A stretch of 64,000 nt of DNA from Eledone cirrhosa (lineage: Eukaryota): NCBI GenBank assembly GCA_964016885.1, contig OZ024745.1, forward strand, positions 27,714,001-27,778,000, in the 5' to 3' direction. This document shows, one piece after another, positions 8,819 through 60,613 of the stretch. The stretch's first letter is position 1. The number at the start of each line of letters is the position of its first letter. Below the pieces are notes generated by a model that worked only from the letters and a program-made list of their open reading frames with translations, was not told where the DNA came from and did no database searches. Both the position numbers and the translations under genes were made by a program.

Positions 8819-8880
8819 TTTTATCTGATGAAGACGTACTGAAAAAACAGCACAGTACCTCCGAAATATATATGATAAAA
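8819..8880 (+). ncRNA. Type I hammerhead ribozyme with G at the cleavage position (probably inactive)
   Basis: UUUUAU-CUGAUGA-agaCguacug..caguacCucc-GAA-AUAUAUAU-G-AUAAAA. Confidence 0.7.
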
Positions 8881-9194
8881 CATATATTTTGATTATGTGA
8901 ATGTATCCATTTATTAATATTTGAATAATATATATATATATGTATATATATATATATATATATATATATATATATATATATATATATATATATATATATA
9001 TATATATACATTTATTAATATTTGAATAATATATATGTATATATATATATATATATATATATATATATATATATATATATATATATATATATATATATCC
9101 CCTAACTGAATAAAGTATTTTTTGTACACATGTACATAGAGAACGTTCTAAGTGAATGAGCACTTAAAATTTGTGGCCAGGGTATGTTTATCTT

Positions 9195-9230
9195 CTGAAG
9201 AATAGGTAACGTGTACCTCGTGAATATATA
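9195..9230 (+). ncRNA. Partial hammerhead running into (TA)n
   Basis: CUGAAGA-auAGGUAacgugUACCUcgu-GAA followed directly by a (TA)n tract; 3' strand of stem I absent. Confidence 0.4.
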
Positions 9231-10345
9231 TATATATATATATATATATATATATATATATATATATATATATATATATGTGTGTGTGTGTGTGTGTGTG
9301 TGTATATGTATCTGTGTGTCTGTGTGTATGTGTGTGTGGCATACACACATATATACTTATATCTTGATGATTTCTCCCAAATGAAACAATTTTAGAAGCC
9401 TTTCTATATTAAATATTTATACTCTGCCATGTATTGAGAATCTTACTTACTGTGGTTACCCCCGATTGAACCCGGGATAAATATATATATATATATATAT
9501 ATATATATATATAAATAACAAAATAAGATGCTGAGGTTACATATATCGTTTAATCATAATAATTATTTCCACGGTTCTCCATGCAATCGAGATGTCCATG
9601 CATTTGCTGTTAATTATGAGAACAGATGAAAACCGATATGTTTGATATGTCGCTGGCAGAAAAAAAGACACGTCCTATTGCTTGTGTGCTCAGCAGACAT
9701 ATGAGTTCCTTGAAGGGTTTGCCAGCCGTCGTGTTTGCTAGAAAAGACTATCAACGAAAAAAAGCTTTCACCTGCTTACTCCTGTTTTTACCCAAACAAT
9801 CTTCTCCGAACACACACACACACACACACACACACACATATATATATATATATATATATATATATATATATATATATATATAGAGAGAGAGAGAGAGAGA
9901 GAGAGATAGATAGATAGATAGATAGATAGATAGATAGATAGATAGATAGATAGATAGATAGATTGATAGATAGATAGTTATACAGCCCGTGACATACGGC
10001 AAATCCTTCTTCCGACTTAAAGAATATCGATATGCTTTGAAGGTGACATTTTAGCATATATCTCCCGGATATAGTAGAAGTGATTTCTGAGGGCTACGTA
10101 GACGCTGTGCTTGTTACGGGCCATCTATTTCATTTGTGGATATATATATATATATATATATATATATATATATATATATATATATATATATATATATTGT
10201 TATACTTTGGGTCATGTTGCCAATAAGAAACACACGCACCAGTTGCTTTCACTCCAATTTATTATAAATTAAATTTATAAATTTAAGAATTTATAAATTT
10301 CCGGTTGGTTGGTTGGTTCCACAACCAGACGGTTGTTCATATATT

Positions 10346-10388
10346 GTCAAAGTTCTTTCGTCACACATTCTGTGACCTCTTCAGTGAC
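10346..10388 (-). ncRNA. Minimal type I hammerhead in a (TA)n-flanked island (10197-10465)
   Basis: GUCA-CUGAAGA-g-GUCACAgaaugUGUGAC-GAA-AGAACU-U-UGAC; the island's 3' end matches the hairpin at 20189-20265. Confidence 0.7.
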
Positions 10389-10637
10389 TGGGGATTCTTC
10401 TCTTTGTTTTGTGCCTCTCCATTGTTTTGTCCTACGCCATCTTGTTTTTGGCGTAGGACAGAACATATATATATATATATATATATATATATATATATAT
10501 ATATATGCAAAAGTTCTATTTAAAATTGTTGGGATACAACAAGTAAATATTTTTATAACTGATATAAAGCACTCGACAAGTATTTGGAGTAGATATACGA
10601 TATTAATAAATGGAAATTATATTTATAAAACCATATT

Positions 10638-10702
10638 TATTTCATTATACATATTTCAGGGATACCAAATTAAATCATGGTATGCCTTCATCAGACAAAA
10701 TA
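10638..10702 (-). ncRNA. Type I hammerhead ribozyme (mirror of 10716-10780)
   Basis: Reverse complement of 10716-10780. Confidence 0.85.
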
Positions 10703-10715
10703 CTGTTATATATTG

Positions 10716-10780
10716 TATTTTGTCTGATGAAGGCATACCATGATTTAATTTGGTATCCCTGAAATATGTATAATGAAATA
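10716..10780 (+). ncRNA. Type I hammerhead ribozyme
   Basis: UAUUUUGU-CUGAUGA-aggCauacca..ugguauCccu-GAA-AUAUGUAU-A-AUGAAAUA: 8-bp stem I with two G.U pairs. Confidence 0.85.
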
Positions 10781-10973
10781 AATATGGTTTTATAAATATA
10801 ATTTCCATTTATTAATATCGTATATATATATATATATATATATATATATATATATATATATATATATATATATAAAATGGATTATCGAAGTCCTAGGTGA
10901 TTCGAAATTTGAAAATGTGGGAATCTCAAACAACGCAGAAAAATAACTGAAAAACAACAGTCGATTGCTAGAA

Positions 10974-57672: not shown

Positions 57673-57739
57673 TATATTTTGTTATACATATTTCAAAGGT
57701 ACAATGGTGTTTCAGTACGTTTTCATCAGATAAAATATA
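57673..57739 (-). ncRNA. Type I hammerhead in a (TA)n-flanked island (57627-57802)
   Basis: UAUAUUUUAU-CUGAUGA-aaaCguac..guacCuuu-GAA-AUAUGUAU-A-ACAAAAUAUA; related to 8819-8880. Confidence 0.8.
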
Positions 57740-58516
57740 AGAGATTGGTTATACGACATATCCCTAACGTCTTGAACCTTGAATCCCATATAAACTTTTG
57801 GCTATATATATATATATATATGTGTGTGTGTGTGTGTGTGTGTGTGTGAGAGTGTGTACATGTATGGTAATGTTTCTATAAATATATATCTACGTGATAT
57901 TGTAGTGCTGGTCACGTTATACAAGATATTTTCGCCCGTTTCTGTACTGTTTCGTTTCTTCGTGTTCTGTTCGTGTTCTCTTCTATTTGCCTCTTGTTTC
58001 ATTACATTTGATTTATCACATATTCCAGCGCAACATACAACTCACTTATCTCTTTGACGTTTGGTTCATTATATATATATATATATATATATATATATAT
58101 ATATATATTTGTGTGTATATATTTGTGTGTATATATTTAACTATTTATCTCTCTCCCTCTCCCTCTCTCCCTCTCTCTCCCCTTCTCTCTCTCTCTCTCT
58201 CTCTATATATATATATATATATATATATATATATATAAATATATATATATATGTGTGTGTGTGTGTGTGTGTGTGTGTGTGTATCTATATGTATATACAT
58301 ATGTGTATATACACATATATATACATATATATATATATATATATATATATATATATATATATATATATATATATATTTATATACATGGAAAGTTATATTT
58401 AAATTGTTGGGTTAACAACGAGTAAATATTTATAACTGATATAAAAGCACTCAACAAGTATTTGGAGTATATTTATGATATTAAATAAATGGAAACTATA
58501 TTTATAAAACCATATT

Positions 58517-58582
58517 TATTTCGTTATATATATTTCAGGGATATCATATTAACAATATGTTATGCCTTCTTCAGACAAAATA
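58517..58582 (-). ncRNA. Type I hammerhead, homologue of 10716-10780
   Basis: UAUUUUGU-CUGAAGA-aggCauaacauauu guu aauaugauauCccu-GAA-AUAUAUAU-A-ACGAAAUA; a stem I G.U becomes G-C. Confidence 0.85.
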
Positions 58583-58755
58583 CAATATAAACAGTCTTAT
58601 AAATAAATAGATACGACATACCTTTCAATCACCTTGCATTTGGGAGGTTGATTTGGCAGTAAAAAATATTGTGGACAGTTGTAAAAAGAAAGAGAGAAAG
58701 AGAGAAAGAAAGAGAAACGAAGAAAAAGAAGAAATGCATGTGACTAAATAGAGAG

Positions 58756-59084
58756 ATATAGAAAGATAGATAAAGAGAAGAACTTCATGTAAAGAAACAG
58801 AGAGAAATATATATATAGAGAGAGGAAAAAGAGATAGATAGAGATAGATAGAGAAACTAGGAAGTTGAGTATCGGTTGATACATCGGTTGAAACTAAGAA
58901 GTTGAGAAACTAGGAAGTTGAGTATCGGTTGATACATCGGTTGAAACTAGGAAGTTGAGTATCAACCGATACTCAACTTCCTAGTTTCTCTATCTATCTC
59001 TATCTATCTCTTTTTTCCTCTCTCTATATATATTTCTCTCTGTTTCTTTACATGAAGTTCTTCTCTTTATCTATCTTTCTATAT
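58756..59084. repeat. ~125-bp inverted duplication with a scrambled tandem spacer
   Basis: Arms ~58756-58880 / 58961-59084; spacer reiterates GAAACTAGGAAGTTGAGTATCGGTTGATACATCGGTT. Confidence 0.85.
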
Positions 59085-59449
59085 TTATATATATATTTAA
59101 ATATCAAATATGACATATACATGACATATTTGATATTTAAAAAGATTAGAAGTTTAAGTAAATTCTTTTCTTCTTCTTTTACTCTTATACTGTTCATTAT
59201 ACTCCGTCATTATACTGCGCCCATGAGGGGGCAGTAAATGATTTAATGAATCAGTTAAAACCCAGGAATCCAGCACTTAATTGTTCAGATCGGGTAGTTT
59301 ATTCATCGCTATTTGTAGAACAGCTAAATCAAGGGATATAAACTAACAGTAAACGTAAACACGAGCCACTCGTACAGACGTATACACGCCACCTGCACAC
59401 ACATGCATTCGGGATTAAAGCGAATATATTTCCTATAACCTCGTCAATA

Positions 59450-59637
59450 TGGCAGTCAATTGGCAGTATCGGTAGAGGGTTGGACGCCATGCTTTCTAGC
59501 ATAGTTACGTCCCTTTACGGTCTGAATTCAACTCCCGTCGAGGTTAACTTTGCCTTTCAACCTTACGGGGTCGATAAAATAAAGTACCAGTAATGAACTG
59601 AGATAATTGCTGGCCTTGTGCCAAAAGTAGAAGCAAT
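59450..59637 (+). mobile_element. SINE family 1
   Basis: Head, core and 3' end. Confidence 0.85.
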
Positions 59638-60204
59638 ATATATATTTATATATATATTGCCACTATCCATATTCATTAAACCATCACACTCCCGTTTTTA
59701 GTGCGAAAGAAACACTAAATTCCGTGCCCAATCACGTGATCATCCTCAGCTTATCAAATTGTACTTTAAACAGATAACAATTTGAACGATCTTTTTGCAT
59801 AGAACTGAAAGAACGCTCCCGAATTTTAGCGCGAAATTACCACAAGATTCTGTGGTTTTCTTCAAACCAGCAAATGGTCCTTCAAACATATAGCAATCTG
59901 AACCACACAGTTTTGGGGTAAAACTGAAAGAAATTCACAACATCAGTTAGAAGCGAGTTACAAGTCGGCAGAACCACACATCTTTCCATCTTTCTTAACG
60001 TTTGAAAAACATGAAACATATGAAACCGGCAAAGTTATACGTTATTGTAAATAAACCTTCTTTAAGATTCCAATTGCATTTTCAACTCTTTTTCCCAATT
60101 TTTTACCCATGTGGAATATATTAACCCCCCCCCTCTCCACAGACACACGCACATAAACATATATATATATGTATCTATTTATTTATATATATATATACTG
60201 TATA

Positions 60205-60613
60205 CCTTGAAAGGTTTATTATACTATGACCATTTCAATGACCGGGTTCAGTATGAATCCGGTGATATCATCAGGTATTCAAAATATAACAAAAGGAATA
60301 TAACAGATAAAATCCATGGGGCTGAAAATCAGAGACAAGAGGACGACCGACTATTTAGCAGCTTCTACCTCAGTCGGCCGACCTCGAGTCCTTTGTTATA
60401 TTTTGAATACCTGATGATGTCACCGGATTCATACTGAACCGGGTCATTGAAATGATCATAGTATAATAAACCTTTCAGCCTCCTGTTATTTTATAATAAC
60501 ACCACCAACTACACAAACGAAGACGGGTGAGTTGCATTACGTTGATATTACATCGAGATTGACCATACGGAATGACCAGTTCTATCCAGTGGTGAACCAA
60601 CAAACCTAAATAA
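60205..60613 (+). mobile_element. Spaced fold-back insertion with two hammerheads and a TSD
   Basis: 86-bp arms 60208-60293 / 60392-60477, tail to 60613; ATATATATACTGTATA at 60189-60204 and 60614-60629. Confidence 0.85.
60407..60464 (+). ncRNA. Type I hammerhead (mirror copy at 60221-60278, minus)
   Basis: AUAC-CUGAUGA-uguCaccggauucauacugaaccggguCauu-GAA-AUGAUCAU-A-GUAU. Confidence 0.85.

What the first reader, a model, noticed from the sequence alone, without database searches (positions are those of the whole stretch)
8819..60464. Hammerhead subtype with an invariant C.C mismatch at position 4 of stem II
Seen in stems of otherwise different sequence: agaC/Cucc (8819), aggC/Cccu (10716, 58517), gguC/Cauc (14122), gaaC/Cuuc (41168), aaaC/Cuuu (57673), uauC/Cauu (60221; uguC at 60407). 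The three basal positions covary (G-C, A-U, G.U, occasional mismatch at the first), and the helix above is unrelated, yet both Cs persist. All share an 8-nt AU-N4-AU helix III. Inference: a conserved tertiary contact, metal site, dimer interface or protein-binding site. I do not recall this being described but cannot check.
Basis: seen in the sequence. Interest (0 to 1): 0.8.

Follow-up and report, generated by a model that had tools for sequence, protein, structure and literature searches.

The report
Retroelement hammerheads with invariant unpaired cytosine
These are self-cutting-RNA (hammerhead) motifs from the tails of a very abundant jumping-gene family, and they keep one unpaired C that has not changed while the surrounding stem and its facing base did, which likely marks a contact point for RNA folding or for the element's own enzyme.

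Summary
They are 3' ends of Hydra-clade Penelope-like retroelements; about 105,000 pattern matches exist in this 3.0-Gb genome. Genome-wide the pair is not invariant C.C: C.C 73,373, C.U about 22,900, C.A 3,585, C-G 475, non-C on the 5' side 5,418. C.U and C.A mark whole families; C-G and non-C copies seen were scattered decay. So the 5' C (C10.4) is fixed and left unpaired, while its partner varies. It is the only invariant non-core column in 24 family representatives, across RT lineages about 50-64% identical whose silent sites are saturated, so shared ancestry alone does not explain it. Helix III is a palindrome, the known dimer-cleavage signature. None of 26 published Hydra-clade hammerhead rows shows the mismatch; two key papers could not be read. 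Mechanism is untested: most likely a stem II-stem I docking contact, next a binding site for the RT-endonuclease. The scan's earlier notes hold Penelope hammerheads in other genomes, not this motif.

The parts
8819..8880 (+). Type I hammerhead, C10.4 at 8835 facing C at 8859; G17 (likely impaired copy); cut site after 8874; (TA)n starts 53 nt downstream
10638..10702 (-).
10716..10780 (+). Type I hammerhead, C10.4 at 10734 facing C at 10757; same family as the hammerheads flanking Hydra-clade ORF P0002 in L031
14122..14177 (+). Type I hammerhead, C10.4 at 14137 facing C at 14157; 5-bp stem I
41168..41240 (+). Type I hammerhead, C10.4 at 41185 facing C at 41218; G17 (likely impaired copy)
57675..57737 (-). 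Type I hammerhead, C10.4 at 57719 facing C at 57698
58517..58582 (-). Type I hammerhead, C10.4 at 58564 facing C at 58540; about 300 nt of element 3' UTR upstream
60221..60278 (-). Type I hammerhead, U.U at position 1, C10.4 at 60264 facing C at 60240; inverted partner of the next one
60407..60464 (+). Type I hammerhead, U.U at position 1, C10.4 at 60421 facing C at 60445

Best explanation
These are type I hammerhead motifs at the 3' end of Hydra-clade Penelope-like retroelements, predicted to cleave as dimers through a palindromic helix III, in which an invariant unpaired C at stem II position 4 likely docks against stem I in place of the usual loop-loop contact. Shown: the fold, the host element, the palindrome, the invariance of the 5' C across deeply diverged families, and that its partner is C, U or A at family level. 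Inferred: two copies (upstream and downstream pseudo-LTR) exchange helix III to become active, freeing the element's 5' end from a read-through transcript, while the downstream copy stays uncut and is copied into DNA; the long stem II puts its loop out of reach of stem I, and the unpaired C sits about where canonical loop 2 begins, so it would make a sequence-independent (groove or backbone) contact with stem I or its A-rich 3' continuation. Cleavage itself was not tested.
For: Alignment of 24 family representatives: C10.4 is the only invariant column outside CUGANGA/GAAA/U16.1; position 4 is a standard pair in 0 of 24, neighbours 2, 3, 5-8 in 22-24 of 24 with two-sided changes; RNAalifold leaves it unpaired on its own. 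Parsimony on 30 representatives: 0 changes at 10.4, 3-10 at other 5' stem II positions, 5 at its partner. RT lineages linked to these hammerheads are about 50-64% identical; four-fold silent sites match at 18-35% between those lineages (28% expected from composition), and 0 of 15, 0 of 28 and 0 of 22 such sites are invariant across 6, 4 and 5 lineages. Unbiased 420 kb with position 4 ignored: of 20 hits with AU-started 8-nt helix III, 14 C.C, 5 C.U, 1 G-C; of 9 hits with AC-started helix III, 8 have a standard pair at position 4. Precedent: an internal loop in domain II makes the tertiary contact in the CChMVd(-) hammerhead, and loop 2 of the Schistosoma hammerhead opens with a C:A opposition (PMC2632901 passages).
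Against: No invariant or covarying partner for the C was found: a G on the 5' strand of stem I occurs at -6 to -10 in some families and is absent in others, and stem I length varies from 4 to 8+ bp. Canonical loop 2 starts after 4 bp, here the C follows 3. Monomer folding does not give the hammerhead junction as the minimum-energy fold in any of the 8 copies folded, z-scores -0.03 to -2.5. No RNA run was listed, so expression and cleavage are unobserved. Representatives were mostly drawn from searches that required the 5' C.
Confidence: 0.42

Rival explanations
1. The unpaired C is a recognition point for the element's own RT-GIY-YIG protein, which binds the uncut 3' hammerhead to position reverse transcription and/or to switch cleavage on.
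For: Element ends lie at fixed distances from the cut site across families: 37 of 76 copies meet (TA)n 43-59 nt downstream and 21 of 76 at 131-151 nt, so integrated copies derive from uncut or re-ligated RNA. The Anolis Poseidon hammerhead cleaves only with its protein, and uncut RNA is the insertion template (PMC11167929 passages). It explains invariance without an RNA partner.
Against: The proteins have diverged to about 50-64% identity; other Hydra-clade elements lack the mismatch. A fixed end distance does not single out this base.
Confidence: 0.28
2. The feature is inherited and not itself selected: an ancestral C-G pair lost its G, and the C persists by chance or because hammerhead modules were swapped between families more recently than the RTs diverged.
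For: 15 of 25 distinct published Hydra-clade hammerheads have C at this position, paired with G (my reading of File S2). Only 4-5 family-level changes at the partner were seen, so the absence of a C-G family is not significant alone. One position was picked out of about 35.
Against: Silent sites are saturated between lineages; both flanking helices turned over by compensatory changes and the partner changed 5 times; C at five independent saturated sites has chance about 0.226^5 = 6e-4 (arithmetic).
Confidence: 0.15
3. The mismatch forms a metal- or pH-sensitive pocket, or weakens basal stem II, tuning a slow ribozyme that lacks the usual G10.1-C11.1 pair.
For: G-C at position 1 in only 8 of 30 representatives and unpaired in 8; C.C and C.A can be protonated (own knowledge).
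Against: C.C, C.U and C.A differ in geometry, and simple weakening would not require C on the 5' side only.
Confidence: 0.15

Closest known systems
Hammerheads of Hydra-clade Penelope-like elements (Craig et al. 2021, PMC8557442, File S2)
   Same: Type I, 3' of the ORF, no extra nucleotide after A9, palindromic 8-10 nt helix III, frequent U.U at stem II position 1, A often at the cut site, (TA)n targets; host ORF has the Hydra motifs.
   Different: All 26 Hydra rows have position 4 paired or in the loop, none C.H followed by more helix; stem II here is longer; helix III mostly AU-N4-AU rather than AC-started; about 1e5 copies.
Minimal hammerheads of metazoan PLEs (Cervera and de la Pena 2014, PMC4209133; Lunse et al. 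2017, not read)
   Same: PLE pseudo-LTR location, long stem II, short palindromic helix III, predicted dimer cleavage, many families per genome.
   Different: Their consensus has an extra nucleotide between 9 and 10.1 and a conserved G10.1-C11.1 pair; none of the 56 aligned examples shows C.C at this position.
CChMVd(-) viroid and Schistosoma mansoni tertiary-stabilised hammerheads (PMC2632901)
   Same: An internal loop in stem II, or a C:A opposition at the base of loop 2, takes part in stem I-stem II docking.
   Different: There the 3' A is the essential base pairing with U of loop 1; here the 5' C is fixed and the 3' base varies, in a 1x1 mismatch after 3 bp.

Membership tests
Type I hammerhead ribozyme | CUGANGA and GAAA core, A15.1-U16.1, stems I-III with covariation | tested here: met
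   14 of 16 pairs with two-sided changes, 0 of 500 shuffles as high
Type I hammerhead ribozyme | H (not G) at position 17 | tested here: met
   A in 7 of 9 window copies and A or C in 29 of 30 representatives; G in 8819 and 41168
Type I hammerhead ribozyme | Self-cleavage | not testable with these tools
   no RNA holder listed
Rfam hammerhead families | Score at gathering threshold | tested here: not met
   0 matches; no hammerhead family among the 150 of 254 E-value rows shown
Hydra-clade PLE | C-terminal GIY-YIG with CxCx5C linker, DKT, RWK, CxxC and CxH motifs, downstream sense hammerhead | tested here: met
   DKT, YRDD, CxCx5C, CxxC in L229, L035, L228, L286; RWK in the L286 ORF frame only; RT3/RT4 resemble Hydra rows of Fig. 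S1 text. The window copies themselves hold no ORF; the ORF link is shown for their families at other loci, and not shown for the 60221/60407, 41168 and 57673 families
Hydra-clade PLE | Insertion in (TA)n; inverted 5'-truncated or tandem pLTR structure | tested here: met
   73 of 76 copies have (TA)5 within 400 nt downstream; inverted pairs; tandem copies L229, L228, L286
Minimal PLE hammerhead (min-HHR, Cervera 2014) | Extra nucleotide between 9 and 10.1 and conserved G10.1-C11.1 | tested here: not met
   direct register pairs (slides of 1-3 columns lose pairing); G-C at position 1 in 8 of 30
Minimal PLE hammerhead (min-HHR, Cervera 2014) | Palindromic helix III/loop 3 for dimer folding | tested here: met
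   69 of 76 self-complementary
Non-LTR retrozyme | Tandem 170-400 nt repeats with canonical loop 1-loop 2 contacts | tested here: not met
   copies are single, inverted pairs or ORF-flanking; no conserved loop 2

The most novel reading that the evidence does not exclude
A new hammerhead architecture, present in about 100,000 copies, in which a single unpaired stem II cytosine replaces loop-loop docking or is the handle by which a Penelope reverse transcriptase grips its RNA and measures where to start copying.
Probability: 0.35. Interest if true: 0.7.

Novelty: new variant of a known kind. Interest (0 to 1): 0.48.

Why it matters
Why Penelope-like elements keep hammerheads is open (PMC8557442 calls their function unclear), and their ribozymes are described as lacking tertiary contacts. 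A single base conserved against saturated background gives a precise mutational handle to separate RNA docking from protein recognition, with natural C.C, C.U and C.A families as ready controls. It also shows that descriptors demanding a fully paired stem II could miss most hammerheads in such a genome.

Tried and rejected
Rfam: no hit. Metagenome scan: 0 of 120 matches had the stems; the scan covered 2 of 64 parts. Viral contigs: 5 of 115 passed a loose filter, none convincing; no Hydra-like RT there. Pfam gave no family for the PLE ORFs. Neptune was my first guess for the host clade and was dropped. A G-C tertiary pair with a stem I bulge G was rejected for lack of a constant G. Short-stem II variants were deletions or chance. 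Sequencing runs: no RNA holder listed; the laid contigs' variant table stopped before C10.4, and one low-depth loose end in organism C resembles a C.U copy, too weak to use. RT-hammerhead links for L250, L274 and L032 were judged unreliable (nested elements) and not counted as lineages. RT tree: the families fall in one clade with 85% support together with eight database proteins, two named from Argonauta hians; inner branches are weak. DNA around those proteins could not be obtained, so the motif's spread beyond this genome is untested. Earlier-findings look-ups gave nothing on this motif.

Full report
Observation. All eight cited sites are type I hammerhead motifs with C opposite C at stem II position 4 and an AU-N4-AU helix III. 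A ninth lies at 10694(-). A descriptor blind to position 4 found 11 hits in the window against 0 in each of 30 shuffles and 0 in the reversed sequence. A covariance model built here scored the nine at 56-74 bits (six of them were in its training set) and one decayed candidate at 9180-9249 at 18 bits. Rfam has no match. Two copies (8819, 41168) carry G17, which impairs minimal hammerheads (PMC3884650 abstract); their relatives have A.

Host element. The genome is 3.0 Gb. At other loci the same hammerhead families lie in sense about 1-2 kb downstream of ORFs with RT and C-terminal GIY-YIG domains, in tandem or inverted arrangements. The ORFs carry DKT, CxCx5C, CxxC and CxH motifs, which define the Hydra clade (PMC8557442 section 11; supplement text). 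The window has no such ORF: its copies are 5'-truncated ends in (TA)n. For three window families (60221/60407, 41168, 57673) I did not find an ORF; their assignment rests on shared motif and flanks. Database relatives include proteins named from Argonauta hians and Hydra vulgaris.

Is C.C invariant? No. With one pattern frame (A or U at position 7, A17, 20-48 nt stem II) the genome gives C.C 73,373 (control 6), C.non-C 26,926, C-G 475, C.A 3,585 and 5' non-C 5,418 (control 377): about 69% C.C, 22% C.U, 3% C.A, 0.4% C-G, 5% non-C. Only the first 100 matches of each search were listed. In those lists C.U and C.A form large families, whereas C-G, G-C and other non-C matches were scattered copies of C families, unrelated repeats or chance (judged by eye). 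A further family with AC-N4-GU helix III, C17 and C.U gives most of 1,678 matches. In 420 kb taken without regard to content, AU-started hits were 14 C.C, 5 C.U, 1 G-C of 20; the model's 29 hits in 400 kb of it were 20 C.C, 6 C.U, 1 G-C, 2 gapped.

Is the 5' C selected? In 24 family representatives it is the only invariant column outside the core. Position 4 is paired in 0 of 24, positions 2, 3 and 5-8 in 22-24 of 24 with compensatory changes, position 1 in 18 of 24. On a tree of 30 representatives built without position 4, it shows 0 changes against 3-10 for other 5' stem II positions and 5 for its partner. Representatives were hand-picked, mostly from C-requiring searches. Five RT lineages tied to these hammerheads (L031, L223, L035/L225, L286, L238/L262; the last link inferred from two loci) are about 50-64% identical, with silent sites at background identity and none invariant (0 of 15, 0 of 28, 0 of 22). 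So inheritance alone is unlikely unless hammerhead modules moved between families. The lack of a C-G family is suggestive but not significant on 4-5 changes.

Controls. Other hammerhead families in the same genome pair position 4 (8 of 9 AC-started hits; window 29684). None of 26 Hydra rows in File S2 of PMC8557442 has the mismatch, though 15 of 25 distinct motifs have a C-G pair there (my reading). Among 28 CUGANGA hammerheads I counted in 15 loci with Hydra-like RT from animal-derived contigs in genome contigs, one (L441) has C.A at position 4 while its sister copies have C-G; these score at most 31.5 bits with my model.

Mechanism. Helix III is self-complementary in 69 of 76 copies, matching the dimer model for PLE hammerheads (PMC4209133 text parts 1-2; PMC6765202 passages). 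Element ends cluster 43-59 nt (37 of 76) and 131-151 nt (21 of 76) past the cut site, so integrated copies come from uncut or re-ligated RNA, as in Anolis Poseidon, whose ribozyme needs its protein (PMC11167929 passages). Loop 2 is unalignable, so the canonical contact is absent. I favour the unpaired C as a substitute docking point on stem I (0.42), then protein recognition (0.28), drift or module exchange (0.15), metal/pH tuning (0.15). No RNA partner was identified, and none of this was tested biochemically.

Prior art. Nine searches found no description of this mismatch. Also seen: passages of PMC3088659 (U.U at position 1 is known), PMC7229834, PMC13725137, PMC5737381, PMC2632901; part 1 of 5 of bioRxiv 2026.07.22.740005; PMC4209133 supplement parts 1-2 of 3. 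Lunse 2017 was not held, Arkhipova 2017 did not appear, and figures are not held, so a prior depiction cannot be excluded. Hammerhead numbering and the spatial closeness of stem II position 4-5 to stem I are from my own knowledge.

Verdict. A real new variant of a known kind: Hydra-clade PLE hammerheads with an invariant unpaired C10.4. Interest 0.48.

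Noticed in passing
window 29679-29762 (+) and 41947-42025 (+): Two hammerheads of another family (ACC...GGU helix III, long stem II, U-A at position 4); similar families are common in the genome.
   Followed up: partly
window copies and L001-L040, L443-L482: Element 3' ends are bimodal, about 50 and about 140 nt past the cut site, across unrelated families: a tail of about 90 nt, longer than the 30-40 bp reported for PLEs.
   Followed up: partly
L242 (G000:C1:1025354-1025387) and other copies: The antisense strand of the RT motif FDITMGSSD reads CUGAUGA...GAAA with a poor stem II; probably a chance hammerhead-like core.
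   Followed up: no
window 9180-9249 (+): Decayed hammerhead-like remnant before a (TA)n tract, model E 0.17.
   Followed up: no
window 43081-48444 and 48929-54306 (+): Two adjacent LINE elements with endonuclease and RT domains, the second with an intact 1150-aa ORF2.
   Followed up: partly
3' strand after stem I in many families: AAUAAA occurs within about 20 nt after the cut site in most families, a possible poly(A) signal or A-rich docking strand, though the region is AT-rich.
   Followed up: no
L428-L442: Several bacterial MAG records in genome contigs hold animal Penelope-like elements with hammerheads, i.e. likely host contamination.
   Followed up: partly
L236 3944-6267 (-), L040 7413-8444 (-): Other PLE clades are present in this genome; not linked to the C10.4 hammerheads.
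   Followed up: no
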